Source: Nitrososphaerota archaeon
Lineage (GTDB): Archaea > Thermoproteota > Nitrososphaeria > Nitrososphaerales > Nitrosopumilaceae
Assembly (NCBI GenBank): GCA_016871975.1
Contig: VHBM01000001.1
Location: forward strand, 1 to 54,154
DNA length: 54,154 nt
Direction of reading: 5' to 3'
Position numbers and translations under genes: made by a program. Each line of letters opens with the position of its first letter. Positions within the stretch are counted from its first letter, which is position 1. Shown in pieces: positions 39,997 to 54,154 of this stretch. The notes beneath the pieces were generated by a model. The model worked only from the letters and a program-made list of their open reading frames with translations, searched no databases and was not told the DNA's origin.

Positions 39997-40683
39997 TTGG
40001 TTGGTAAAAAAATAACAAAAGGAATAGCAAAAGATATTGTAATAGTTGTAATAGGTGTTTTGATAATATGGCTTGGATTAAGAGTGGTTTTTGGGACAGA
40101 AAATCCATTTTATGTTGTCTCAAGTGGTAGTATGGTTCCTGAGCTACAGGTTTTTGATGTGTTAGTGGTGCAAGGAAATGAACCATTTGAAAGTGTACAA
40201 AAAGGAGACATCATAGTTTTTCATAGGCCAGCAGGACATGATAGGGTAATAGTTCACAGAGTGGCAGAAATTATTGATGATGATCCAAAAACAATACGAA
40301 CAAAAGGCGATGCAAATCCTTCTTCAATTCCAGGTACTGATTTTCCAATAACAGATGACGAATACATTGGTAAAGTAGCATATGTCATACCACAAATTGG
40401 CTATATTACAAGAATTTTGATGCCGCCAGTCAATTATATCATAATTGCAGTAATTGTTGGAATTATGATTTTCAAACAAATTTCAAAAAATAAAAAAGCA
40501 AAGGAAATATCACTTGCATCCAAAGACGATATTCCAAATGAGGTATTTCAAAATAGTACCTCTGATGCAAGTTTAACAAATCTTCCCAAAGATAATGAAT
40601 ATACGGAGTTTGAAAAAGTTCAGAGTTCAGATACGGTTAATCAAGCGGGAAAATCTGATTCAAAAGAAAAAACGGATAATTAA
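39997..40683 (+). CDS. Signal peptidase I, archaeal/eukaryal type (S26B, Sec11-like)
   Basis: N-terminal TM, catalytic Ser box VVSSGSMVPEL, His box IIVFHRP....VIVHRV, KGDAN box, and a C-terminal TM. Confidence 0.85.
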   Translation: MVGKKITKGIAKDIVIVVIGVLIIWLGLRVVFGTENPFYVVSSGSMVPELQVFDVLVVQGNEPFESVQKGDIIVFHRPAGHDRVIVHRVAEIIDDDPKTIRTKGDANPSSIPGTDFPITDDEYIGKVAYVIPQIGYITRILMPPVNYIIIAVIVGIMIFKQISKNKKAKEISLASKDDIPNEVFQNSTSDASLTNLPKDNEYTEFEKVQSSDTVNQAGKSDSKEKTDN

Positions 40684-42197
40684 CTTTCTTTGTTATTGAT
40701 TTTAAATACTCGTTTAAAGTATTCAGAATTTTCTTGTGGTTCTTCAAAGTCATCTTTTACATTAGCTAGATGTTTTGCCAAGTTTTTCTTGTAACCAAGC
40801 TGCATTTGGCGCGCAATTTGAATTCGCTGTGCCTGAGGCGATCCTGCACCATGCATTGACTCTGTAAGATATCCAACTGCATTTCTACCTAATGTCATGT
40901 TTTCGATTAATCTTAGTATGCGCATCCTGTTTTCAACGTCAACACCTTTTCTTCCTGCCAAATATTTTCTAAGTAATGGTCCTGTCTCAGGATTTCTAAA
41001 GTCCTTTTCTGAAGGCATTGTCACAACCAGCCCTCCTGCAATGTCTTGAGCTAGTCTACCAATTTCATATGGAAATCTTGTAACGTTGTGTTTGCATACC
41101 TGTGCTAGCATATCGTCATTTAGCCACACACCAGATTTGAGCTTGTGAGCCTGATATGACGATGCAACCCCTGCAGCATAAATTGATTCATTGAGATGTG
41201 TCATCTCGACAAGTTTATCCTTGATGTGTGAAACATTTGGGATACCATTATAGTCTGCAATTGTAGCTGCTGCACCAATTAATACATCACCAAGTCCTGT
41301 CTTGCAAACATAACTTCTTCTGTGATAACAAGTAAATCTTTCAACAAGCATTGAAGCAAACTCATATTCACCATACATGAATACTTTTTCCCAAGGGATG
41401 AAAACGCGATCAAGTATTATCATTGCCTCTTGTCCTGCAAATTGTGAGTTTCCGGCATCAAGATCTCCTCCTTCCATACTTCGTGTGTCGCAAGACTGTC
41501 GTCCATAGATGTAAGTTATGCCCTCTGCATCTGCAGGTACCGCTCCAACAATTGCATAGTCTTTGTCGTTTTCTGTTAGTCTCATAGTTGGCATGATGAT
41601 AATCCAATGTGAATTGATACATCCTGTTTGGTGGGCTTTTGCACCTGTTACGTAAACTCCTTTGTCATTTTTTTCCACTACACGAACAAACATGTCAGGA
41701 TCTGCTTGTTCTGCAGGGCCTTTGCTTCTATCTCCTTTTGGATCTGTCATGGCGCCACCTATTACAAGATTCTCGGTTTGAACCATTTTGATAAAATCTA
41801 TTAGTCGTTTATGGTATTTTGTGCCAAATTTTTCATCAATTTCATATGTTGTGGAATGGAGTGAGTTTATTGCGTCCATCCCTACACATCGTTGAAAGCA
41901 GGTTCCTGTATTTTGTCCCATTTTTCTCTGCATTTTATTTTGTAGTACTAGATCTTGTGCGCTTTCTACAATGTGTAAAAATCGGTTTACTCTCATTCCG
42001 GTTATTGATGAATGTGCGGTTGCTAGTTCTTCTTCTCTTCCTGCCAAATCATATGTTTCAGCTACGGCGTTAATTGATGGACGAATCATTGGATGATCAA
42101 CAGGCTCTTTGACTAATTCACCAAAAAGATACACTTTGAGTTTTCTGCCTCGCAAACTCTGGATATACTCTTGGCCAGTTCTAATTGGCATATGCAT
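40680..42197 (-). CDS. abfD: 4-Hydroxybutyryl-CoA dehydratase (4-hydroxyphenylacetate 3-hydroxylase superfamily)
   Basis: About 505 aa. N-terminal PIRTGQEYIQSLRGR and Cys/His cluster-ligand regions (CFQRC..., HQTGC). It neighbours the ADP-forming synthetase as in Nitrosopumilus (recalled as Nmar_0207/0206). Confidence 0.88.
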   Translation of the reverse strand: MHMPIRTGQEYIQSLRGRKLKVYLFGELVKEPVDHPMIRPSINAVAETYDLAGREEELATAHSSITGMRVNRFLHIVESAQDLVLQNKMQRKMGQNTGTCFQRCVGMDAINSLHSTTYEIDEKFGTKYHKRLIDFIKMVQTENLVIGGAMTDPKGDRSKGPAEQADPDMFVRVVEKNDKGVYVTGAKAHQTGCINSHWIIIMPTMRLTENDKDYAIVGAVPADAEGITYIYGRQSCDTRSMEGGDLDAGNSQFAGQEAMIILDRVFIPWEKVFMYGEYEFASMLVERFTCYHRRSYVCKTGLGDVLIGAAATIADYNGIPNVSHIKDKLVEMTHLNESIYAAGVASSYQAHKLKSGVWLNDDMLAQVCKHNVTRFPYEIGRLAQDIAGGLVVTMPSEKDFRNPETGPLLRKYLAGRKGVDVENRMRILRLIENMTLGRNAVGYLTESMHGAGSPQAQRIQIARQMQLGYKKNLAKHLANVKDDFEEPQENSEYFKRVFKINNKES

Positions 42198-42253
42198 AAA
42201 GTGCCCTGAAGTGTTATAAATATTCTAAACTGTTTCTGGTCATGCGTGTTTTG

Positions 42254-44350
42254 TTAAAGACCTATTCTAACGTCAAGAATCTTGCAACCTTTTCCTTTTT
42301 CCATGACCAATACCGGATTCATATCCAGTTCTTTGATTTCTCTAAAATCTGTTACAAGTTGTGACAACCGTTGGATGCATTCAGATAATTTTGCAAGATC
42401 TGATGGTTTTTCTCCTCTTACTCCTTCAAGAAGTTTTTTTGTTTTAATTGATGCGATCATGTCATCTGCTTCTTTGTCAGTTACTGGTGCAAGTCTGAAT
42501 GTAACATCTTTTAAGACCTCTACATAGATGCCACCCATCCCAAGCATCAAGACAGATCCAAATCCCGGTTCTTGTTTTGAACCAATGATCATTTCCTTTC
42601 CGCCTTTTACCATTTCAACAACTAGGACGCCTTTGATTACTGCGTTTTTGTTGTATTTCTTTGCATTTTTTATGATCTCTTTAAATGCTGAACGCACGTC
42701 TTTGTCATTTTGTATGTTTACCTTTACGCCACCAGCATCCGATTTGTGAATGATTTGTGGCGATGCAATCTTTAAAACAACCGGATAACCAATCTTTTTT
42801 GCAATTTTTACTGCATCCTGTTCTGTTTTTGCAAGCATACTTTTTGGAAGTGGTAATCCATACGCACGTAGTATTTCTTGTCCTTCCTCTTCAAGCAAGT
42901 TTTGCCTACCCTCTTGTTTTGCATTATCAAAGATTTTTTTTGCCTTGTTTGTGTCTACTTTGAATGTAACAGTATTGCCTTCTGGACTTTTAATCCACTC
43001 AACAAACCTAAGCATTGCCTTGAGGGTTTGAATCGATGCTTCTGCATAGGTATAATACGGTATTCCTCCTTCTGCCATGATTTGTCTGTTTTTTATGCCT
43101 TCATCTAGTCCCATTAGACTTGCAAGAATGGTTTTTTTGTATTTTTTTGACATGTTAACAACTACTTCTGCAAGTTTGTTGTAGTCAAGAGTTGCAGATG
43201 GTGTACACATTGCAATAACAGAACCAACATTTTTGTGTGATAAAACATTCTCAAGTACATTGTTGAATCGATTATAATCTGCATCGCCAACGATGTCCAC
43301 GGGATTTCGTGAGCTGCCCCATGGTGGAATTACCGCATCAATTTTTGGTCTAATGTCATCAATTTTTGCCATTTTTATTCCGAGTTTTGAACATGCATCA
43401 GTTGAAATAATAGCTGGTCCACCAGCATTAGATACAATAACAAGATCACCCTCTAGTGGAAGTGGTTGCTTTGAGAATGCGGTAGCATAGTCAAATAATT
43501 CTCCCATTGTATCTACTCTGATTGCTCCAGATTGTTTTAGTAATGCGTCATAGATTTCGTCAGAACCCATCAATGCTCCTGTATGAGACATTGCGGCTTT
43601 TGCTCCCTCAGGACTTCTTCCAGATTTTAAAACCAATACAGGTTTTCTTAGATTTTTAGTAATGTTTTTACAAATCTTTAAAAATTTTTGACCGTCACCC
43701 ATGTCTTCTAGATACATCACAATCACCTTTGTCTGTTCATGGTTTGCAAGCATCTCTAGTACATCAATTTCATTCATGTCAGCTTTGTTTCCCATACTTA
43801 CAACTGCTGAAAATCCAATCCCCTGTGCACTTGCATCCTCAACAAGTGCAGCGCAGATCGCTCCACTTTGTGAGACCAGTGCTATTTCTCCTGATTTTGG
43901 TGTAACTTTTAGGAATGTAGAATTCATCATTGTTTGTGGAGCAAGGTTCATCACGCCAAGGCAGTTTGGACCAATTACCTTGATGTTGTACTTTTTTGCA
44001 ATCTCCTTTAGTTGTTGTTCTAGTTTTGCTCCTTCTTCGTCAACCTCCTTGAATCCAGCGGTAATTACAATTGCTCCTTTGATTCCCTTTTTACCACATT
44101 CCTCTAAAACTGTTGAAACGATAGTATTTTTTGTAATAATTACCGCCAAATCAATTTGTTCAGAAACATCTAGGACAGTCTTGTATGCTTTTTTATCAAA
44201 AACTGTGTCCCTTGTTGGACTGATTGGATAAATGGTTCCCTTGTATCCCTTCATGATGTTTGAGGTAATTGCTCGTCCTACACTTCCTTCCTTATCTGAT
44301 GCACCAATTATTGCAATTGAGGTAGGTGAAAGAAAAACTGATTCTGCCAA
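42254..44350 (-). CDS. ADP-forming acyl-CoA synthetase, fused alpha/beta (NDP-forming ACD family); likely 4-hydroxybutyrate-CoA ligase (ADP-forming)
   Basis: CoA-binding SIAIIGASDKEGSVG, the phospho-His loop region MSHTGALMGSD, and a C-terminal ATP-grasp domain (YPVVLKI.SPQIIHKSDAGGV). TTG start. Substrate is inferred from synteny with the dehydratase. Confidence 0.85.
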   Translation of the reverse strand: MAESVFLSPTSIAIIGASDKEGSVGRAITSNIMKGYKGTIYPISPTRDTVFDKKAYKTVLDVSEQIDLAVIITKNTIVSTVLEECGKKGIKGAIVITAGFKEVDEEGAKLEQQLKEIAKKYNIKVIGPNCLGVMNLAPQTMMNSTFLKVTPKSGEIALVSQSGAICAALVEDASAQGIGFSAVVSMGNKADMNEIDVLEMLANHEQTKVIVMYLEDMGDGQKFLKICKNITKNLRKPVLVLKSGRSPEGAKAAMSHTGALMGSDEIYDALLKQSGAIRVDTMGELFDYATAFSKQPLPLEGDLVIVSNAGGPAIISTDACSKLGIKMAKIDDIRPKIDAVIPPWGSSRNPVDIVGDADYNRFNNVLENVLSHKNVGSVIAMCTPSATLDYNKLAEVVVNMSKKYKKTILASLMGLDEGIKNRQIMAEGGIPYYTYAEASIQTLKAMLRFVEWIKSPEGNTVTFKVDTNKAKKIFDNAKQEGRQNLLEEEGQEILRAYGLPLPKSMLAKTEQDAVKIAKKIGYPVVLKIASPQIIHKSDAGGVKVNIQNDKDVRSAFKEIIKNAKKYNKNAVIKGVLVVEMVKGGKEMIIGSKQEPGFGSVLMLGMGGIYVEVLKDVTFRLAPVTDKEADDMIASIKTKKLLEGVRGEKPSDLAKLSECIQRLSQLVTDFREIKELDMNPVLVMEKGKGCKILDVRIGL

Positions 44351-44799: not shown

Positions 44800-45552
44800 T
44801 TAGATACCAAACAAATTGTTTACTATTGCTATTTCATATAGAATGTTTGTGCCAATAAGTAAACTTGCAAATCCAGCAATGTACCTAAGAGCTTTGTTTG
44901 CAGATTCGATCTTGTTTATAAACGCAAAAGGAAGTCCGATTAGTCCACTTACCATCACCATTCCAATTACAGACCCAATACCAAATATCAAAATGAAGCT
45001 TAAAGTTGTCTCAATGTTACCAAGTGTACTAGCAGTCAATACAACTAGACTTCCACTTCCAGCTAATCCGTGAATGCAACCTATAAGGTAGGATTTGTGT
45101 GAATGTTTGTGGTCACTATCGTGTTCATGTGGATGAGTATGAATCGTACCGTCGTCATGGGTGTGAGTGTGTAAGTGTTTTAGCGTAAACAGTTTTTTGT
45201 TGCTAAATGTTGTAAATGCAAGAAAAACCAGCATTATTCCAACAATAAATTCAAAACTCATGAAAACATTTTGTGGAATGTTTATTGCCAAAAGATAGAC
45301 AGCAAGCCCCATTAGTACAAGTGTTGTTGTATGACCTGCACCCCACATAGCACCAAGAAATGACGACTTGAATGTACCTTCTGTAATTATTTTCCTGACT
45401 GATTGCAGTTTGTATCGTCGTTTTGAGATCTGAGTACTTACTGCTGCTACATGATCTGGCTCAAATGCGTGTTGTAAACCTATAGCAAGACCCAATGTCA
45501 AAACTAGTGCTGGAGTCATTGCCTGTAATTGTTCAATAATTTGTTCTACCAA
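44800..45552 (-). CDS. NicO/NiCoT-like nickel/cobalt transporter (UreH/RcnA-like) with His-rich loop
   Basis: Six predicted TM helices. TM motif LQHAFEPDHVAAV (H-x4-DH signature), WGAGHTTTLV, and a central loop HLHTHTHDDGTIHTHPHEHDSDHKHSH. The TTG start lies 1 nt after the upstream stop. Confidence 0.7.
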   Translation of the reverse strand: MVEQIIEQLQAMTPALVLTLGLAIGLQHAFEPDHVAAVSTQISKRRYKLQSVRKIITEGTFKSSFLGAMWGAGHTTTLVLMGLAVYLLAINIPQNVFMSFEFIVGIMLVFLAFTTFSNKKLFTLKHLHTHTHDDGTIHTHPHEHDSDHKHSHKSYLIGCIHGLAGSGSLVVLTASTLGNIETTLSFILIFGIGSVIGMVMVSGLIGLPFAFINKIESANKALRYIAGFASLLIGTNILYEIAIVNNLFGI

Positions 45553-45553
45553 T

Positions 45554-45955
45554 TTACGCCTGTTTTCTAGTATTTGGTATCAAGATATAATCACTAGTTG
45601 GTATTGGTTCATCAAGTGTTATGGTCACTGTTGGATTATTGTCAAGTGTTACATCAAAGTTTAACTTTCTTATTGATTCTGGAACTCCAATCATTACTTT
45701 ATCCTGAGATAGAATTTTTCTTGTGTTTTCCTTTATTGATTCAACTGATTTTTCATCACGTAATTCACTAATAACATAGGCACAATACACAAGAATCGCC
45801 TCATTTAGATTAATTCTTAGATTTTTTGAAAGTCGTTGCTTGACTAGCTCAATTGAAGAAAAAAAGACATTTTCTGAATCAGAATCATACTGGAATATTT
45901 TAGTTATGGGCTGTACATCTGGCTCGCCATGTATGATTACTTTAACATGAATCAT
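45554..45955 (-). CDS. Urease gamma-subunit-like protein (orphan, no other urease genes nearby)
   Basis: Residues ~38-118 (KQRLSKNLRINLNEAILVYCAYVISELRDEKSVESIKENTRKILSQDKVMIGVPESIRKLNFDVTL...TITLDEPI) align almost without gaps to Klebsiella UreA as I recall it ([66 protein letters not shown]...VTVHNPI). Identity is roughly one third. The start overlaps the ureohydrolase stop as ATGA. Confidence 0.55.
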   Translation of the reverse strand: MIHVKVIIHGEPDVQPITKIFQYDSDSENVFFSSIELVKQRLSKNLRINLNEAILVYCAYVISELRDEKSVESIKENTRKILSQDKVMIGVPESIRKLNFDVTLDNNPTVTITLDEPIPTSDYILIPNTRKQA

Positions 45956-47070
45956 TTTCTTTTTGGAATTTCTGATCGAGATTCTTTTCCAAAGTGATAT
46001 GTATTTCCTGTACCACGATACTTATGAGGTCGCACAGGACTACCATCCTTTTTGCCTTGTTTTGTAAGGGATAGTCCTGCTAAGAGCTCAACTATCAATC
46101 TCTGTCCAAGTCCTGATGTAATGCCACCATTGTATGAGCTTTGATCACTGACATCATATGTAGGAGATACTTCTACAAGATCCATTGCAAACTTATCAGG
46201 ATCAAATCCTACAGAAAATTGTCGCACCAATCTCATTCCCTCCCTTGAAGTAAGGCCGTTTGGCTCAGGTTCACCTGTACCTGGAGCATATGCAGGATCA
46301 AAAGAGTCAATATCCCATGTAAGATAGACAGCATCTGTTCCATCGTTTGCACGGTCAACTGCTTCTTTTGCTATAGTATCAATTCCCATCTCTTCAACAT
46401 CAAGCATTGTAAACCATTGAAAATCCTGGTCTGACATCCATTTGTAGAGGTCAGGCCCAGGCCAGTATCCTCTTGGACCAATTAGAGTATAGTTTTTGCC
46501 TTTTAGACATCCAAGTTCCATGACTCTTCGAATGTGTGCACCGTGGTCATATTTGAAGCCGCAAAGACCCTGTGGTGCGCAATCAGCGTGTGTGTCTAAG
46601 TGTATTATTCCAATATTTTTGTATTTTTTTGCAAATGCTCTAACATTTGCAAATGTGATTGAATGATCTCCTCCAAGCATTACAGGTATTCCATTTATGT
46701 CGAGTACTTCTTTGACCTTTTCTGTCATTCTTTTGTGTGATTCAATAACATCGCCTGGTGAAACATTCACATCACCATAATCAACTGCTCTGAAGACACC
46801 AAAAGGATCGGCACCAGTCTCTATGTTAAATCGCTCATATGGAGGAGCAGGTATTGTAGATGCCGCACGTATAGCTCTTGGTCCGTAACGGGCACCTGGA
46901 CGAATTGTTGTTCCAAAATCAAATGGTTCACCGATTATAGCTACATTTGGTTTTACCTTTTGAAGTTCTGCATGGCTTTGTACCCATGGCAGATGCAAAA
47001 ATGTGTTGATTCCAACAAATGGGGGTTGATCATTCCCTCTGTATGATTCACCGTAAAATTCCATTCCCAT
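45952..47070 (-). CDS. Arginase-fold ureohydrolase (agmatinase / guanidino-acid hydrolase / guanidine hydrolase family)
   Basis: All binuclear-metal ligands are present: GGDHS (H136), HLDTHAD (D159/H161/D163) and TWDIDSFDP (D253/D255). Also APGTGEPEPNGLTSRE and DLVEVSP. At 372 aa, with a ~40-aa basic C-terminal tail, it is longer than classical SpeB. Confidence 0.85.
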   Translation of the reverse strand: MGMEFYGESYRGNDQPPFVGINTFLHLPWVQSHAELQKVKPNVAIIGEPFDFGTTIRPGARYGPRAIRAASTIPAPPYERFNIETGADPFGVFRAVDYGDVNVSPGDVIESHKRMTEKVKEVLDINGIPVMLGGDHSITFANVRAFAKKYKNIGIIHLDTHADCAPQGLCGFKYDHGAHIRRVMELGCLKGKNYTLIGPRGYWPGPDLYKWMSDQDFQWFTMLDVEEMGIDTIAKEAVDRANDGTDAVYLTWDIDSFDPAYAPGTGEPEPNGLTSREGMRLVRQFSVGFDPDKFAMDLVEVSPTYDVSDQSSYNGGITSGLGQRLIVELLAGLSLTKQGKKDGSPVRPHKYRGTGNTYHFGKESRSEIPKRK

Positions 47071-48476: not shown

Positions 48477-50027
48477 TTAATGTGCTGCGCTTTTACTTGA
48501 TGCATCTTCACCAGAACTTGGTACAAAGTGTTTTAGATCTTCACCTGATATGAGATCTTCTTCTGGTGGAACATAGTCCCTTACATCATGTCGTGCTTTG
48601 CCAGGCCATTTCTTTTGTGTAGCTAATGCTACGCCAATAAATACTGCAAAGGATATTGGTGGTGGTATCATTGTGTCTAGTCCTGCCCATTCTATAGGCA
48701 TTGTAAAGAAGAATGCTAATCGTAGAGCGGAACCCACTAAAAGTGAAGCAATTGCAGCAGGCATGTTTGCCTTTCTCCAAAACAGCCCTAGTGTAAGCGG
48801 TGCAAATGCACCTGCAAATACGATATCAAATGCCAATATTAGATAGATGCCAGGTGCTGGTACGAAGTAGCCAAGAAGGAATCCTGCAACCATCATTGGT
48901 ATTATGACTGCTCTTGTAACCCATAACAGTTTTTTGTCTGTCCAAGGTTCTTTATGCAACCATCTTCGTCGAATGATTCTTTGGATCAGATTTCTTGAAA
49001 CAACACTAGAGATCGCCAACAATCCACCATTTGCTGTGGACATTGCAGCCCCAAGAACTCCCATCAAAAGAGCTGCGCCTATTACAAATGGCATATGATT
49101 GATAGCTAATTCAGGCATTGCAGTAAACGGATCTTCTAATCCTGGCAAAAAGTGTAATGCGATTATTCCCATCATACTTGTTGGAACTACAGTAAATATT
49201 GTAAGTGCACCTCCCCAGAAGGCTCCACGCTGTGCAGTTTTTGGATCTCTTGCTGCAAATACTCTTTCCATAAAGTCAAGTGCAACTATATCACCGAGAC
49301 CAAGTGCAAGTATGCCGGCCCAATTGATGAGGGCGCCCGATGCAATATCAGTTAGTCCTGACAGATCCATATATCCAGGTGGTGCACTGCCAAGTATGGT
49401 ATCAAATGGAACTCCTGCAAATCCGCCTGCAAAGAAGATAAACGCTGCCCAGAAAGCACCTATTGCAAGATAAATCTGGAATATGTCCGTGTAAGCAGAG
49501 GAGAAAAGTCCACCTGCAAAAGTATATGAAAGTACAACTAGAGCTGCAATAAGTACCCCCCAAAAGAAGTCAATGCCAAAAACTGTTTGTAGTATAAATC
49601 CACTTGCTGCAAAGTTTCCTGCCACAAGTACCGTAAAACTAATTATCATCAAAACGCCGGAAATTCCTTCTGCAGCATTACCAAACCTTCTAAAATAAAA
49701 GTCGGGCAAAGTAAACATGGTCATCTTGTTTAATGGTTTGCCGTAAAAGAAGCCAGTCAAAAGAAGGCATATTCCAAGGCCTATAGGAATTACAGCTCCT
49801 GCCCAAAACCCAAATTGATATACAAGAGCAGCATTACCTAACGATGAATTACCATCTATTGATTGTGCTGCAAGCATTGTGCCTACAAAAAACAAAGGTA
49901 GAGTCTTTCCAGCAACCATTAATCTTCGGCCACTTTTTTGAACCAGTTTGTAAGTCAGAGTTCCTACTACCAAAGAGGCTATCAGAAATCCAATTATTGC
50001 GATGCCAAAACCAGTAATCTCTGCCAT
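48477..50027 (-). CDS. Sodium:solute symporter family (SSF) transporter
   Basis: About 13 TM helices with SSF-like N-terminal architecture (VAGKTLP...GTMLAAQSIDGNSSLG) and a hydrophilic C-terminal tail. Substrate unknown. Confidence 0.75.
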   Translation of the reverse strand: MAEITGFGIAIIGFLIASLVVGTLTYKLVQKSGRRLMVAGKTLPLFFVGTMLAAQSIDGNSSLGNAALVYQFGFWAGAVIPIGLGICLLLTGFFYGKPLNKMTMFTLPDFYFRRFGNAAEGISGVLMIISFTVLVAGNFAASGFILQTVFGIDFFWGVLIAALVVLSYTFAGGLFSSAYTDIFQIYLAIGAFWAAFIFFAGGFAGVPFDTILGSAPPGYMDLSGLTDIASGALINWAGILALGLGDIVALDFMERVFAARDPKTAQRGAFWGGALTIFTVVPTSMMGIIALHFLPGLEDPFTAMPELAINHMPFVIGAALLMGVLGAAMSTANGGLLAISSVVSRNLIQRIIRRRWLHKEPWTDKKLLWVTRAVIIPMMVAGFLLGYFVPAPGIYLILAFDIVFAGAFAPLTLGLFWRKANMPAAIASLLVGSALRLAFFFTMPIEWAGLDTMIPPPISFAVFIGVALATQKKWPGKARHDVRDYVPPEEDLISGEDLKHFVPSSGEDASSKSAAH

Positions 50028-50543: not shown

Positions 50544-51059
50544 ATGCCAAGCCAAGGTTATTCAACGATAGGACTCAAACCTTCAATTATAAGCGAACTT
50601 CAACGCATAACTGATCAGTACTACCCAGGTATGTTTTTGCCAAGTACACTAATAATTACAATGAATGAAATCAAGCGTGGATATTATACGCCAGAAATGC
50701 ACAACATAAAAGTCGATCTTTCAGGGCGCTATAATTCACTGACTATCAGATCCGATGTGAAAGAGTGGCTTGAGGAAAATTATAAAAATCTTTTTGATTT
50801 GTATGCAGAAAGATATGGAATTGAAAATTTCGCTCAATTTGTTAGCTATTTTATTATGAATCTATTTCAGTCAAAGATAAAGGCACAAGAACAGGTCATT
50901 AAACTAAAAGCCTCTGAATTCAAATGGCTAATTCAAGAATATAAAAAACGAAAAAAACAAAATGGATTAGATACCGCTACATTTGATCGATTTGCAGATG
51001 AGTTTTTAAGAGAACTACTTGAAAAAATAAATGAAGCAAAGAAAATTTTATCTACATAA
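50544..51059 (+). CDS. Hypothetical protein (possible N-terminal ribbon-helix-helix)
   Basis: 171-aa ORF with typical coding composition. STIGLKPSIISELQRI could be a beta-strand plus helix of an RHH fold. That is inference only. Confidence 0.4.
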   Translation: MPSQGYSTIGLKPSIISELQRITDQYYPGMFLPSTLIITMNEIKRGYYTPEMHNIKVDLSGRYNSLTIRSDVKEWLEENYKNLFDLYAERYGIENFAQFVSYFIMNLFQSKIKAQEQVIKLKASEFKWLIQEYKKRKKQNGLDTATFDRFADEFLRELLEKINEAKKILST

Positions 51060-51086: not shown

Positions 51087-51347
51087 CTAAATTGGACTCA
51101 TTGTATCAAGTAATCTTGCGTTAGTTACTTGCCCTGTTTTTTCCTGAAATTCTAGGTCTACTGTGTATTTGAGATTGTTTTGTAAAAATCTAACCTGAAC
51201 ATCCCAACCTGTTCGTGGGCCTTTTTCAGGTAAAGGAAACGTTTCACTGACTTTAAAGTCTGACACATCACCATATAGAGCTTGAATGATTCTTTTCGAT
51301 TCTCTTTCGATGTCTTGTGATGTACTAACTTTAGTCATGATCATCAT
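51087..51347 (-). CDS. Hypothetical small protein
   Basis: 86-aa ORF predicted to be mostly beta (WDVQVRF, YTVDLEF, TGQVTNARL). No family recognised. Confidence 0.4.
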   Translation of the reverse strand: MMIMTKVSTSQDIERESKRIIQALYGDVSDFKVSETFPLPEKGPRTGWDVQVRFLQNNLKYTVDLEFQEKTGQVTNARLLDTMSPI

Positions 51348-51519: not shown

Positions 51520-53211
51520 TTGAAATATCCTGATCTTCTTGGCAAAGATGTAGCGCGAGTTGGAGTTCAGACTACGCGCAAGTATAATCTTCTTGCAAGC
51601 AGAATGATCACTGATGTGATTAAAACTTCACTTGGCCCACGGGGTATGGATAAGATGTTTATTGATATACAAGGAGATGTTTATGTAACAAAGCATGGGG
51701 GTGCATTCCTACGAAAAGTAGATCATGAGCACCCTGCAGCAAAAGCAGTTGTAGATGCGGCAAATTCCGTTGATAACCATGTAGGGGATGGAACTATTTC
51801 TGTTGTTGTTTTAATTGGGGCATTATGTGCAAAGGCAGAAGAACTGCTAAAAAGCGAGATTCCACCTGCAACAATTGCCTCTGGCTATCAGATAGCCTCA
51901 GATATTGCCCTTGAGACACTTGCCTCAGTTGCTCAAAAAGCAAGTGTTTCTAGCAGAGATATGATGATGTGGCTTGCTTTAACATGTCTCAAAGGTAAGT
52001 CAATATCAGATATGATTGATGAAGAGATTGTAGCAAAACTAATTGTTGATGCAGTTTGTACTATTGCCGATTTTAAAAATAACAAGATAGATGTTGATGA
52101 TATAAAAATTGAGGAAAAACTTGGTAATGCAACAGATGTTCAGCTAATAAATGGGATTGTGGTTGATAAAACAATTGATAATTATGCAATGCCAAAAATT
52201 ATCAAAGACGCAAAAATTCTTTTAACAAACGAATTTCTTGAACCCACTCGTACTAAGATAGACGATGAGATAATAATAACATCGCCAGAACAGATGAACG
52301 TATTCATAAAACGAGAATCTGATACGGTCATCGAAAAAGTTCAGAAGATAATTGATGCGGGAGTTAATGTTGTTATATCTAGAAGGGGGATTAACCAGTT
52401 TGCTCAAGAATGTCTTGCAAGATCTGGAATAATTTCTATCAAGCGAGCTACAGAAAATGATTTGTGGTGGCTTGAAAAAGCTACGGGTGCAAAGATCTGC
52501 GAAGATCTTAACAACATTTCCAAAGATGAATTAGGATGTGCAAAAAAAGTTTATGAAAAAACGGTAGGAGATGATAAAATGGTATTTGTTGATGGATGTA
52601 ATAATCCAAAGGCAATTACAATTTTGTTAAGGGCAAATTCTAAAAAATATCTTGAAGAATTTCATCGGACAGTAAAAAATGTATATTTTGTTTTACGAAA
52701 TTTCATCGAGAATCCACAAATAGTTGGCGGAGGTGGATCTGTAGAAGCAATAATTGCACAAAAAGTAAGACAAAAGGCTCACATGATTGAAGGTAAAGAA
52801 CAAATTGTTGTAGAAAAGTTTGCTGATGCATTAGAAGAAATTCCAATAACCCTTGCTAGAAATGTAGGTATGGATGTAATTGATACTATTGTTGAACTTA
52901 GGGCAAAATATGCTCAGTTTGTCAATGGTAACTATGAATGGATTGGCATAGATTCATCTCAAAGAAAAGTAGCTGAAGTTTTTTCAAAAAATGTAGTTGA
53001 GACTCTTGCTGTAAAAGAACAGGTTATCAAAACAGCTGCCGAAACTACCATTGCATTGCTAAATGTAGATGATATTTTTATGAAAGATGAAATTGATAAT
53101 ACTCACTGTCATATTGATGGCACGGTTCATGCTCACCACGATGGTGGTAAGGCGCACAATCATTTTGAGCAAGAAGGAATAGAGCAGCGTCAAATGCACC
53201 ATTATTACTAG
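51520..53211 (+). CDS. ths: Divergent group II chaperonin (thermosome/CCT family) paralogue with His/Cys-rich C-terminal tail
   Basis: LGPRGMDKM, EHPAAK, GDGT, the GGGGSVE motif and overall colinearity with thermosomes. However TNDG reads TKHG, the catalytic-Asp region reads VKNV, and the tail is THCHIDGTVHAHHDGGKAHNH...MHHYY rather than GGM repeats. TTG start. Confidence 0.85.
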   Translation: MKYPDLLGKDVARVGVQTTRKYNLLASRMITDVIKTSLGPRGMDKMFIDIQGDVYVTKHGGAFLRKVDHEHPAAKAVVDAANSVDNHVGDGTISVVVLIGALCAKAEELLKSEIPPATIASGYQIASDIALETLASVAQKASVSSRDMMMWLALTCLKGKSISDMIDEEIVAKLIVDAVCTIADFKNNKIDVDDIKIEEKLGNATDVQLINGIVVDKTIDNYAMPKIIKDAKILLTNEFLEPTRTKIDDEIIITSPEQMNVFIKRESDTVIEKVQKIIDAGVNVVISRRGINQFAQECLARSGIISIKRATENDLWWLEKATGAKICEDLNNISKDELGCAKKVYEKTVGDDKMVFVDGCNNPKAITILLRANSKKYLEEFHRTVKNVYFVLRNFIENPQIVGGGGSVEAIIAQKVRQKAHMIEGKEQIVVEKFADALEEIPITLARNVGMDVIDTIVELRAKYAQFVNGNYEWIGIDSSQRKVAEVFSKNVVETLAVKEQVIKTAAETTIALLNVDDIFMKDEIDNTHCHIDGTVHAHHDGGKAHNHFEQEGIEQRQMHHYY

Positions 53212-53222
53212 ATTTATGTCAA

Positions 53223-54154
53223 TTATTTAGACAGTCTAGAAAACAAGGCAGCGTATAGAAACGGAAGAATTGTTGTCGCCTCTGCATGTATCGTAGTTTG
53301 TTTTGCATTTTGTGTTACCTTTCCCCAAGATATTGCTTCATCCACTAATGCGCCACTTGAGCTCCCATCGAATTCTTGTGCAGTTGTTATGTATGCTGCA
53401 TAATCCAAACCATCCCTATATTGATTCCACCAAAGCGTATGATGTTTTGGTACTCCACCACCAATCATTAGGGCACCCGATTTTTTTGCTTTAAAGATAA
53501 GACCAGACAAAAGATCCGCATCTGCAATAAGATTTAGCTTAAAATCATGATGTTTTTGTGTAAAAAGCCAGATCTGACTTCCAACCGCACCATCCATTAT
53601 ACCAGGAACAACAACTGGAATTTCATTTTTGTATGCCCAATACAAAAATGAGTTTTCACCCATGTGGCGACCTATCATTTTTGTGATATCCGCAGTTGAC
53701 ATCTCTTTATTTCCTGCCTTGTATTCTTCTTCCAAAAAGGCTTGCGTCTTTTCTTCAATTATTGGGCCATAGCTCTGCATTGGTACAAGCACATTGCCTA
53801 GTCTATGGATATGTTGATCAGCAAGCTGTTTATCATCCAGTGCAAAGTCACCTTCTTTGTAATTTGAGAAATATCTTGCAATATCATGATCTAGAGATCC
53901 ACAAGTTGTGATAACAACATCAAACCACTTGTTTTTTATCATGTCTTTTATTACACCACGAAGACCTGTTGAGATAATAGCAGCAATAAATGACAAAAAC
54001 TTTAGACATTTTTTATCAGGAATCATTGTTGATAGAATATCTAGTCCTTCAGCGAGATTTCTTGCCTCAAATCCCCCCGACTTTGACATTTGCTCAAATA
54101 TTTCTTCAATATTAGATTCCTTTTTTATTGAAATGTCTTTTACGTCTCGTCCTG
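53223..54154 (-). CDS. dys: Deoxyhypusine synthase (5' end outside window)
   Basis: SGGFEARNLAEG, TTCGSLDHD, VPGIMDGAVG, MIGGGVPKHH and the EAISWGK active-site Lys region. The frame stays open upstream of the track ATG to the window edge (…GRDVKDISIKKESNIEEIFEQ). Confidence 0.88.
   Translation of the reverse strand, partial: GRDVKDISIKKESNIEEIFEQMSKSGGFEARNLAEGLDILSTMIPDKKCLKFLSFIAAIISTGLRGVIKDMIKNKWFDVVITTCGSLDHDIARYFSNYKEGDFALDDKQLADQHIHRLGNVLVPMQSYGPIIEEKTQAFLEEEYKAGNKEMSTADITKMIGRHMGENSFLYWAYKNEIPVVVPGIMDGAVGSQIWLFTQKHHDFKLNLIADADLLSGLIFKAKKSGALMIGGGVPKHHTLWWNQYRDGLDYAAYITTAQEFDGSSSGALVDEAISWGKVTQNAKQTTIHAEATTILPFLYAALFSRLSK

What the first reader, a model, noticed from the sequence alone, without database searches (positions are those of the whole stretch)
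51520..53211. Thermosome paralogue lacking both catalytic aspartates and carrying a His/Cys-rich metal-binding-like tail
Seen in sequence: the protein is colinear with group II chaperonins, including LGPRGMDKM, EHPAAK, GDGT and GGGGSVE.
- The TNDG / GroEL-TKDG motif reads TKHG (His59, codon 51694-51696).
- The segment aligning without gaps to the M. maripaludis Cpn segment (recalled) ...IRGTTEHVIEEVARAVDDAVGVV... reads ...LRANSKKYLEEFHRTVKNVYFVL... (Asn387, codon 52678-52680).
- The usual Gly/Met-rich C-terminus is replaced by THCHIDGTVHAHHDGGKAHNHFEQEGIEQRQMHHYY (53085..53211).

Established knowledge: these two positions correspond to GroEL D52 and D398 (Mm-Cpn D386). Mutating them abolishes ATP hydrolysis but not ATP binding. 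His-rich tails on chaperonin-system proteins, such as H. pylori HspA, bind Ni.

Inference: this is an ATPase-impaired, possibly metal-binding chaperonin subunit. It could act as a regulatory or holdase subunit in hetero-oligomeric thermosomes, or as a metallochaperone. It lies about 4.5 kb from the Ni/Co transporter-ureohydrolase operon, but that proximity may be coincidental.
Basis: partly seen in the sequence, partly recalled or inferred. Interest (0 to 1): 0.65.

Follow-up and report, generated by a model that had tools for sequence, protein, structure and literature searches.

The report
Urease-linked His-tailed archaeal chaperonin paralogue
This gene encodes a special copy of the archaeal protein-folding cage, found only in ammonia-oxidizing archaea, that carries an almost invariant histidine-rich tail, sits in the urease/nickel gene neighbourhood across the group, and in this lineage has lost both residues needed to burn ATP, so it probably handles nickel for urease-type enzymes rather than folding proteins in general.

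Summary
ORF 51520-53211 (+) is a full-length group II chaperonin. His59 and Asn387 replace the two catalytic aspartates; Asn387 aligns without gaps to Mm-cpn D386. A 38-residue tail with 9 His and 1 Cys replaces the Gly/Met tail.

It is not a strain oddity.
- H59 and N387 are invariant in 120 orthologues of 61-100% identity.
- The tail is the most conserved part of the protein: dN is about 0 while dS is saturated.
- The tail motif HxHxDGxxHxHxxGxxxHxHFxxxGxxQRxxHHYY occurs only on a monophyletic chaperonin clade of ammonia-oxidizing archaea (AOA), from Nitrososphaera to Nitrosopumilus.
- Nitrososphaerales and some Nitrosotalea members keep both aspartates. Both were lost once, at the base of Nitrosopumilaceae.

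New context: 67 of 69 loci with enough flank carry urease genes, the SSS-type urea transporter, or an arginase-family/UreA-like/NicO-like operon next to the gene. Typical orders are ureEFGD>chaperonin and <ureCBA|chaperonin>. The window has the transporter and that operon but no urease genes.

Best reading (inferred): a nickel-handling chaperonin dedicated to this island, ATP-binding but hydrolysis-impaired here. Abby 2018 noted an Hsp60 homologue in urease loci. I found no report of the tail or the aspartate loss.

The parts
51520..53211 (+). CDS of the His-tailed group II chaperonin paralogue (563 aa, TTG start)
   Evidence: 120 orthologues of the same length; dN/dS 0.10-0.14 against L001-L003
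51694..51696 (+). His59 codon (cat) at the TNDG catalytic Asp column (Mm-cpn D60 / GroEL D52)
   Evidence: H in 120/120 orthologues; D in Nitrososphaerales members, N or S in Nitrosotalea-like members
51784..51801 (+). P-loop GDGTIS (canonical GDGTTT); the Mg-binding Asp90 is retained
52678..52680 (+). Asn387 codon at the Mm-cpn D386 / GroEL D398 column
   Evidence: ungapped alignment to 3kfb; N in 120/120 orthologues; D in Nitrososphaerales and Nitrosotalea members
53095..53208 (+). Conserved His-rich C-terminal tail DNTHCHIDGTVHAHHDGGKAHNHFEQEGIEQRQMHHYY (9 His, 1 Cys)
   Evidence: tail dN about 0 with dS saturated; AF2 pLDDT 30-40 with a weak hairpin at 528-530/536-538
51087..51347 (-). Conserved 86-aa protein with no Pfam hit, divergent from the chaperonin; in Nitrososphaera it lies directly after ureC
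   Evidence: (29 loci)
50544..51059 (+). Conserved 171-aa protein with no Pfam hit, syntenic with the chaperonin in Nitrosopumilaceae
   Evidence: (36 loci)
48477..50027 (-). Sodium:solute symporter, orthologue of the SSS-type putative urea transporter of AOA urease loci
   Evidence: found in 65 loci next to the chaperonin; labelled SSS-type urea transporter by Abby 2018
45952..47070 (-). Arginase-family ureohydrolase (GGDHS, DxHxD and DxD motifs present)
   Evidence: 82-98% identical in 42 loci. The closest solved relatives include guanidinobutyrase, the chain deposited as 'Probable agmatinase 2' (7esr/7oi1) and metformin hydrolase.
45554..45955 (-). Urease-gamma-like 132-aa protein in an operon with the ureohydrolase
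   Evidence: PF00547 E 4e-12, below the curated NCBIfam cut-offs; 41 loci
44800..45552 (-). NicO-like putative Ni/Co transporter (weak match)
   Evidence: PF03824 E 2e-4, below the gathering score. In Nitrososphaera and two Nitrosopumilus chromosomes it lies 3-56 nt downstream of the chaperonin stop, convergent.
53223..54089 (-). Deoxyhypusine synthase, convergent neighbour (context only)
   Evidence: syntenic in 34 loci

Best explanation
The gene encodes a member of an AOA-specific, monophyletic paralogue family of group II chaperonins.

Shown:
- The family's hallmark is a near-invariant His-rich C-terminal tail.
- Its genes belong to the urease / urea-transporter / Ni-transporter / ureohydrolase gene neighbourhood.

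Inferred function: the subunits form a thermosome-like ring whose tails project into the central cavity. By analogy with thermosome structures, that would be 8-9 tails per ring with 9 His each. The tails bind Ni2+. The complex would then act as a dedicated assembly and nickel-supply chamber for urease, and possibly also for the neighbouring arginase-family enzyme. This parallels the Ni-binding His-rich tail of H. pylori GroES (HspA) and of UreE.

Shown for Nitrosopumilaceae, including this window: both catalytic aspartates were replaced once (D59H, D387N), while the nucleotide-binding motifs stay invariant.

Inferred from that: the subunit still binds ATP but hydrolyses it very slowly or not at all. 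It would act as a long-lived closed or holdase/Ni-reservoir state, alone or mixed with canonical subunits.
For: Distinct family:
- Representatives of the clade score 567 bits or more at 49-52% identity. Single-length canonical thermosomes score 392 bits or less at 41% identity or less.
- In an NJ tree built without the tail columns, the clade is monophyletic in 100/100 bootstraps and the H/N subclade in 100/100.

Tail:
- Invariant H7, H9, D11, H15, H17, G20, H24, H26, F27, G31, Q34, R35, Y40, Y41 across orders.
- Found only on chaperonins of Nitrososphaeria in the genome scan: 95 relatives, of which the 80 kept were inspected.
- dN about 0 against saturated dS.

Context:
- 67 of 69 loci with at least 4 kb of flank have ure genes, SSF or the Arg/UreA-like/NicO cluster adjacent.
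- 23 of 25 Asp387-retaining loci have ure genes adjacent.
- Gene orders are ureE>F>G>D>chaperonin, and <ureCBA | chaperonin> <NicO.
- Genomes whose chaperonin is not adjacent to urease still encode ureC, several within 5-11 kb.
- AOA UreE lacks a long His tail.
- Abby 2018 independently noted an Hsp60 homologue in the urease loci of Nitrosocaldus and Nitrososphaerales.

ATP site:
- G39, P40, G42, G89, D90, G91, T92, K160, G404, G406 and E409 are invariant in the H/N clade.
- N387 = Mm-cpn D386.

Selection: whole-gene dN/dS is 0.10-0.14.

Co-occurrence: canonical subunits occur in the same MAGs.
Against: - No metal binding, ATPase activity or oligomer state was measured.
- The window (54 kb) has no urease genes. 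Its closest relatives show none within 10 kb, and those lineages did not appear in the capped ureC list. The client in this lineage may therefore not be urease.
- H/N-type loci are less tightly linked to ure genes (12 of 43) than Asp387-retaining ones.
- AF2 gives the tail no confident structure.
- The NicO match is weak (E 2e-4).
- AOA are copper-rich organisms, and His-rich tails are not metal-specific.
- His59 could in principle still act as a base, so 'ATPase-dead' is not proven.
Confidence: 0.55

Rival explanations
1. The dedicated client is the neighbouring arginase-family ureohydrolase, with its UreA-like partner, rather than urease. The tail supplies whichever metal (Ni, Mn or Co) that binuclear enzyme needs.
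For: - In the window, in Nitrosotenuis DW1 and in Nitrosarchaeum, the chaperonin stays near SSF and the Arg/UreA-like/NicO operon while urease is absent from the flanks.
- The Arg-family protein is 82-98% identical across orders.
- Its solved relatives include metformin hydrolase, reported as a dinickel enzyme, and the chain 7esr/7oi1, which from my own knowledge is the Ni-dependent guanidine hydrolase Sll1077.
Against: - In Nitrosotalea-like loci and several Nitrosopumilales loci the gene follows ureEFGD with no Arg cluster in the flank.
- L274, a 91% orthologue, has neither SSF nor the Arg cluster within 10 kb.
- Palatinszky 2024 found no guanidine-degradation genes in AOA.
Confidence: 0.2
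2. It is a general third thermosome subunit for stress adaptation (pressure, cold, acid) that co-assembles with canonical subunits. The tail tunes ring assembly or stability, or senses pH. The link to urease is a historical accident of gene order.
For: - Archaea often have extra thermosome paralogues.
- Zhong 2020 interpreted an extra thermosome near SSF and urease genes in a hadal MAG as a pressure adaptation.
- C-terminal tails affect thermosome stability (cited).
- NCBIfam names it thermosome alpha.
Against: - Synteny with urease, SSF and Ni-transporter genes persists across orders through several rearrangements. That is not expected for an accident.
- A tail that only tunes stability would not need 8-9 invariant His.
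- The clade was found only in AOA, and every chaperonin-bearing genome that appeared in the capped ureC list encodes urease.
Confidence: 0.15
3. It is a cytoplasmic metal buffer or store (Cu, Zn or Ni) that uses the ring as a scaffold, with no folding role. This would resemble Hpn or the His-rich tail of mycobacterial GroEL1.
For: - High His density.
- Loss of the ATPase residues in Nitrosopumilaceae.
- Actinobacterial GroEL paralogues with His-rich tails are linked to metals.
Against: - The apical domain with its lid helix is modelled with confidence, and the nucleotide-binding motifs remain under purifying selection.
- The tail sequence, not just its composition, is invariant.
- Nitrososphaerales members keep the catalytic residues.
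Confidence: 0.08
4. It is a decaying, functionless paralogue.
For: Loss of both catalytic Asp; score below the TIGR02339 cut-off.
Against: dN/dS is 0.10-0.14, the length is intact in 120 orthologues, and H59, N387 and the tail are invariant.
Confidence: 0.01

Closest known systems
Canonical archaeal thermosome / Mm-cpn (group II chaperonin)
   Same: Colinear over residues 7-522. Same three-domain fold with a lid helix. The LGPxG, GDGT, K160 and GGGxxE nucleotide motifs are present.
   Different: Identity is 41% or less. The catalytic Asp60 and Asp386 equivalents are His and Asn. GDGTIS replaces GDGTTT. The Gly/Met tail is replaced by an invariant His-rich tail. The score is below the TIGR02339 cut-off.
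Hsp60 homologue of AOA urease loci (Abby et al. 2018, PMC5797428)
   Same: For Nitrososphaerales this is very probably the same family. The His-tailed gene sits between ureCBA and the transporter, as described there.
   Different: That paper reports it absent from Nitrosopumilales, and its passages on the Hsp60 homologue do not describe the tail or the catalytic residues. Here it is found in Nitrosopumilus, Nitrosarchaeum, Nitrosotenuis, Cenarchaeum and Nitrosopelagicus, with both Asp lost.
Helicobacter pylori HspA (GroES with a His/Cys-rich Ni-binding C-terminal extension) and UreE His-rich tails
   Same: A chaperonin-system or urease accessory protein carrying a His-rich C-terminal extension in an organism dependent on urease. 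The Ni-binding role is established knowledge for HspA and UreE, recalled from my own knowledge.
   Different: Those are a group I co-chaperonin and a small metallochaperone. Here the tail is on the group II cage subunit itself and is fixed in sequence rather than merely in composition. Ni binding is untested.
Actinobacterial GroEL1-type chaperonins with His-rich C-termini
   Same: A non-essential chaperonin paralogue in which the Gly/Met tail is replaced by a His-rich one and which is proposed to act on metals or metalloproteins.
   Different: Group I, bacterial, with short and variable tails, and no loss of catalytic residues that I know of.
Hydrolysis-deficient chaperonin mutants (GroEL D52A/D398A, Mm-cpn D386A) and BBS6/10/12 chaperonin-like proteins
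   Same: The same columns are altered. The mutants bind ATP but hardly hydrolyse it (established knowledge; the D386A variant is in the PDB as 3j02).
   Different: Those are laboratory mutants or eukaryotic divergent paralogues. Here the change is natural, fixed in a whole archaeal family, and uses specific residues (His, Asn) that are themselves invariant.

Membership tests
Group II chaperonin (Cpn60/TCP-1, PF00118) | Full-length equatorial-intermediate-apical architecture | tested here: met
   Pfam match covers residues 30-522 against profile positions 1-488 of 490, E 1.5e-135. The AF2 body is confident, pTM 0.75.
Group II chaperonin (Cpn60/TCP-1, PF00118) | Built-in lid (apical helical protrusion), no GroES partner | tested here: met
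   Colinear with solved thermosomes through the apical domain, with only small gaps elsewhere. The model has a long helix at 256-279.
Group II chaperonin (Cpn60/TCP-1, PF00118) | Nucleotide-binding motifs LGPxG, GDGT, the sensor Lys and GGGxxE | tested here: met
   All present and invariant in the H/N clade. The second and third Thr of GDGTTT are replaced by I and S.
Group II chaperonin (Cpn60/TCP-1, PF00118) | Catalytic aspartates (Mm-cpn D60, D386) and ATP hydrolysis | tested here: not met
   The residues are H59 and N387. ATPase activity itself is not testable here.
Group II chaperonin (Cpn60/TCP-1, PF00118) | Double-ring 16/18-mer assembly | not testable with these tools
   Only a monomer was modelled.
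Thermosome subfamily as curated (TIGR02339 / NF041082) | Score above the curated cut-off | tested here: inconclusive
   NF041082 thermosome_alpha scores 502 against a cut-off of 450. TIGR02339 scores 499 against a cut-off of 671.
His-rich Ni metallochaperones of urease/hydrogenase systems (UreE, HypB, SlyD, HspA type) | His-rich metal-binding segment | tested here: met
   9 His in 38 residues, 8-9 of them invariant across orders.
His-rich Ni metallochaperones of urease/hydrogenase systems (UreE, HypB, SlyD, HspA type) | Genetic linkage to a Ni enzyme and Ni transport | tested here: met
   Met for the family as a whole. In this window only the NicO-like gene and the ureohydrolase operon are present; there are no ure genes.
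His-rich Ni metallochaperones of urease/hydrogenase systems (UreE, HypB, SlyD, HspA type) | Demonstrated Ni2+ binding and delivery | not testable with these tools
   Requires biochemistry.

The most novel reading that the evidence does not exclude
A chaperonin cage has been repurposed as a nickel-loaded maturation chamber. The tails would line the cavity with about 70-80 His per ring. The complex would encapsulate urease or ureohydrolase apo-enzymes and metallate them inside. In Nitrosopumilaceae the ATPase was switched off (D59H, D387N), so ATP binding alone locks a long-lived closed state. This would be the first natural hydrolysis-deficient group II chaperonin and a new type of urease accessory factor in the most abundant marine archaea.
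Probability: 0.25. Interest if true: 0.85.

Novelty: new variant of a known kind. Interest (0 to 1): 0.68.

Why it matters
Ammonia-oxidizing archaea are major drivers of global nitrification, and urea is one of their key substrates. How they mature urease is largely unstudied. Their UreE lacks a His-rich tail.

A cage subunit with a sequence-invariant His tail encoded next to ureEFGD or ureABC offers a concrete, testable candidate for nickel supply.

For chaperonin biology, the family provides a natural series within one orthologous group: both catalytic Asp present, one lost, both lost. That series allows a direct test of what a group II subunit does when it can bind but not hydrolyse ATP.

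Annotation pipelines currently call the protein 'thermosome subunit alpha', which hides all of this.

Tried and rejected
1. Guanidinase idea for the neighbouring arginase-family gene. Its solved relatives include the chain deposited as 'Probable agmatinase 2' (7esr/7oi1) and metformin hydrolase. However, Palatinszky 2024 and a 2025 floodplain study report no guanidine-degradation genes in AOA, so the substrate stays open.

2. Tail-only profile search of 5.8 billion proteins, to find the tail on other protein families. It returned only 40-73 aa pieces, several named 'archaeal chaperonin', apparently contig-end or split gene calls. No non-chaperonin carrier was found, but full-length proteins were not listed by that tool, so the genome scan carries the argument.

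3. AF2 model of the tail. pLDDT is 30-40, with only a weak hairpin hint. It gives no structural argument for a metal site, and no fold search was run.

4. Attempt to show the tail in Nitrosocaldales. Cluster names for P0156 and P0183 turned out to be Nitrososphaeraceae, so Nitrosocaldus is unresolved apart from Abby 2018.

5. ureC genome scan, to decide whether the window's lineage has urease. It is capped at 80 of 355 hits. The closest relatives (LejiaB_36_11, NC_groundwater_128, SAW80) are not listed, which is inconclusive.

6. Canonical-thermosome scan. The cap filled with Nitrososphaerales, so co-occurrence is shown directly only for five Nitrososphaeraceae MAGs. For marine lineages I rely on Zhong 2020.

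7. Pseudogene reading. Rejected by dN/dS.
Full report
**1. The observation**

The ORF at 51520..53211 (+) starts with TTG and encodes 563 aa. Orthologues begin at the same MKYP position with ATG or GTG, so the start is credible.

It is a full-length Cpn60/TCP-1 protein: PF00118, E 1.5e-135, residues 30-522. NCBIfam scores it above the 'thermosome alpha' cut-off (502 against 450) but well below the TIGR02339 thermosome subfamily cut-off (499 against 671). That already marks it as divergent.

phmmer alignments to solved thermosomes put TKHG opposite TNDG, and HRTVKNVY opposite ERALEDAV. A 102-residue fragment aligns without gaps to M. maripaludis Cpn (3kfb) from chain residue 363. This places window Asn387 exactly on D386, the residue mutated in the PDB entry 'Lidless D386A Mm-cpn variant'.

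The tail DNTHCHIDGTVHAHHDGGKAHNHFEQEGIEQRQMHHYY occupies 53095-53208. The tail has nine His but only one Cys.

**2. Not a strain oddity: a conserved family**

The 120 best database relatives are 61-100% identical and nearly all 560-566 aa long, apart from a few fragments. The named ones are labelled Nitrosopumilaceae, Nitrosotenuis or more broadly Thaumarchaeota/Nitrososphaerota.
- H59, N387, the Mg-binding D90 and G404/G406 are invariant in 120/120.
- The tail is nearly invariant while the rest of the protein drops to 61% identity.
- Against three orthologues of about 89% identity, dN/dS is 0.10-0.14 for the whole gene. In the tail, dN is 0-0.01 while dS is saturated. The conservation therefore acts on the protein, not the DNA.

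A search of 1.84 billion cluster representatives shows a sharp gap. Clade representatives score 567-636 bits at 49-52% identity. Setting aside two double-length proteins (see section 9), the next hits are canonical thermosomes at 392 bits or less and 41% identity or less, with Gly/Met or acidic tails and TNDG/GDGTT intact. Among the 150 best representatives, only clade members have 8 or more His in the last 45 residues; the rest have 3 or fewer.

**3. The tail is older than the loss of the aspartates**

Genome scans with the protein, and with a tail-only profile, found the tail in Nitrosopumilus, Nitrosarchaeum, Nitrosotenuis, Cenarchaeum, Nitrosopelagicus, Nitrosotalea and Nitrososphaera. There were 95 relatives in species genomes. 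The 80 kept and inspected are all Nitrososphaeria or carry generic Thermoproteota/Crenarchaeota labels. The tail is always at the end of a chaperonin-sized ORF.

Across orders the motif is HxHxDGxxHxHxxGxxxHxHFxxxGxxQRxxHHYY.

Catalytic status by lineage:

| Lineage | Position 59 motif | Position 387 |
|---|---|---|
| Nitrososphaerales and some Nitrosotalea | TKDG | D |
| Other Nitrosotalea-like lineages | N or S at 59 | D |
| One Nitrososphaeraceae MAG | H at 59 | D |
| One Nitrososphaeraceae MAG | D at 59 | S |
| All Nitrosopumilaceae proper | TxHGG | N (rarely S) |

In an NJ tree built without the tail columns, the tailed clade is monophyletic in 100/100 bootstraps, and so is the H/N subclade. 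The tail is therefore ancestral to at least Nitrososphaerales plus Nitrosopumilales, and both aspartates were lost once at the base of Nitrosopumilaceae.

Other changes accompany that transition:
- Thr to Cys in the tail (THTH to THCH).
- The second half of the tail turns from basic (FDRLGKQQRP) to acidic (FEQEGLEQRQ).

Within the H/N clade the nucleotide-binding motifs stay invariant: G39, P40, G42, G89-T92, K160, G404, G406 and E409. This argues that the site is still used.

**4. Genomic context: the main new result**

I ran tblastn with the window's neighbours and with Nitrososphaera ure genes against all fetched loci. Of 69 distinct loci with at least 4 kb of flank, 67 carry urease genes, the SSF symporter or the arginase-family/UreA-like/NicO-like cluster beside the chaperonin.

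Recurrent gene orders:
- Nitrososphaerales: <ureC <ureB <ureA | chaperonin> <NicO-like <UreA-like <arginase-like, SSF>.
- Nitrosotalea-like and several Nitrosopumilales: ureE>F>G>D>chaperonin> on one strand, with roughly 100-200 nt between ureD and the chaperonin.
- Marine Nitrosopumilus: SSF>chaperonin>, with ureDGF or the NicO/UreA-like/Arg operon just downstream.
- The window, Nitrosotenuis DW1 and Nitrosarchaeum: <NicO-like <UreA-like <Arg ... <SSF ... chaperonin> <DHS.

Asp387-retaining loci have ure genes adjacent in 23 of 25 cases. H/N(S) loci do so in 12 of 43, but 33 of those 43 keep the SSF gene.

Genomes whose chaperonin is not next to urease still encode ureC:
- Four Nitrosarchaeum-type genomes have it 6.5-11 kb away on the same contig.
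- Four complete chromosomes have it at a distance.

AOA UreE proteins end in at most 'HEH' or 'HHH'.

The SSF gene is the one Abby et al. 2018 label as an SSS-type urea transporter. They also reported an 'Hsp60 homolog' conserved in the urease loci of Nitrosocaldus and Nitrososphaerales, proposed that it stabilises urease, and stated that it is absent from Nitrosopumilales. Zhong et al. [quoted passage not shown]

In the passages I read, neither paper mentions the tail or the catalytic residues. Further searches found no such report.

**5. The window itself**

The window has no ure genes in 54 kb. A 91% orthologue on a 183-kb contig has neither ure genes nor the SSF/Arg cluster within 10 kb. 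The gene is nevertheless under clear purifying selection here.

**6. Structure**

AF2 models the body with confidence (pTM 0.75), including a long apical helix at 256-279. The tail (518-563) has pLDDT 30-40, with only a weak hairpin at 528-530/536-538, the two HxH strands around the DG turn. Residues 38-62 are also of low confidence. This fits a flexible tail that may order on metal binding, but it proves nothing.

**7. Interpretation**

Shown:
- A distinct AOA-specific group II chaperonin paralogue.
- An ancestral, sequence-invariant His-rich tail.
- A single loss of both catalytic Asp in Nitrosopumilaceae.
- Retained nucleotide-binding motifs and purifying selection.
- Conserved linkage to urease, urea-transporter, Ni-transporter-like and ureohydrolase genes.
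- Co-occurrence with canonical thermosomes in the same MAGs: SMAG_U3953, SMAG_U2105, TY_HYHR_2_bin.13, S5_bin.25 and SMAG_U8619.

Inferred:
- The tails bind Ni2+ inside the ring, and the complex assists assembly or metallation of urease and perhaps the neighbouring binuclear ureohydrolase.
- From established mutant work on GroEL D52/D398 and Mm-cpn D386, the H/N form binds ATP but hardly hydrolyses it.

Rivals are listed with their evidence. The most serious is that the client in this lineage is the arginase-family enzyme rather than urease.

**8. Comparison and novelty**

The protein is a member of the group II chaperonin superfamily by architecture, but it fails the catalytic-residue feature.

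It works like, but is not a member of, the His-rich Ni accessory proteins (HspA, UreE). It also parallels actinobacterial GroEL1 paralogues with His-rich tails.

The family's existence in soil AOA urease loci was known. I did not find the following in the searched literature: its presence throughout Nitrosopumilales, the invariant tail motif, and the stepwise loss of the catalytic aspartates. I rate it a new variant of a known kind, with interest 0.68.

**9. Seen in passing**

Details are in the 'noticed in passing' entries. In brief:
- The Arg/UreA-like/NicO-like operon is conserved across AOA orders.
- Two small proteins without Pfam matches (86 and 171 aa) travel with the chaperonin.
- Two representatives of about 1050 aa look like tandem double chaperonins.
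- Nitrosotenuis DW1 has two adjacent deoxyhypusine synthase genes.

Noticed in passing
window 44800-47070 (-): Three-gene operon: an arginase-family ureohydrolase, a 132-aa urease-gamma-like protein, and a NicO-like transporter. The ureohydrolase has its metal-ligand motifs present and is 82-98% identical from Nitrososphaera to Nitrosopumilus. The operon is conserved across AOA orders. Solved relatives of the enzyme include guanidinobutyrase, the chain deposited as 'Probable agmatinase 2' (7esr/7oi1) and metformin hydrolase. The substrate and the role of the UreA-like partner are unknown.
   Followed up: partly
window 51087-51347 (-) and 50544-51059 (+): Two conserved proteins with no Pfam or NCBIfam match (86 aa and 171 aa) travel with the chaperonin in Nitrosopumilaceae. 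The 86-aa one lies directly after ureC in Nitrososphaera loci (for example L022 2915-3166), so it may be another urease-island component.
   Followed up: partly
window 1-54154: No urease structural or accessory genes occur anywhere in the window, although the SSS-type putative urea transporter (48477-50027) and the chaperonin are present. The urease status of this lineage is unresolved.
   Followed up: partly
L035, L108, L112, L113 (N at position 59); L106, L107, L109 (S at 59); L091 (H at 59, D387 kept); L029, L070, L085 (S at 387): The two catalytic positions have been substituted independently in other branches of the clade. This gives natural intermediates between the D/D and H/N states.
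   Followed up: yes
P0157 (1057 aa) and P0158 (1047 aa): Two representatives are double-length proteins with two chaperonin-like matched stretches each. They look like tandem fusions of group II chaperonin units. Their origin was not examined.
   Followed up: no
L276 12686-14827 (Nitrosotenuis sp. DW1): Two adjacent deoxyhypusine synthase paralogues lie downstream of the chaperonin. The window shows one DHS gene (53223-54089) before it ends.
   Followed up: no
window 40680-44350 (-): A 4-hydroxybutyryl-CoA dehydratase-like gene (HpaB domains) and an ADP-forming acyl-CoA synthetase-like gene. Both are typical of the thaumarchaeal 3HP/4HB carbon-fixation cycle and fit an AOA origin for the window.
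   Followed up: no
one search hits P0121-P0148: Many 40-73 aa gene calls consist only of the tail. One is a 52-aa 'hypothetical protein' on an 8.5-kb Marine Group I contig. They are probably contig-end or frameshift fragments, but stand-alone tail peptides were not excluded.
   Followed up: no
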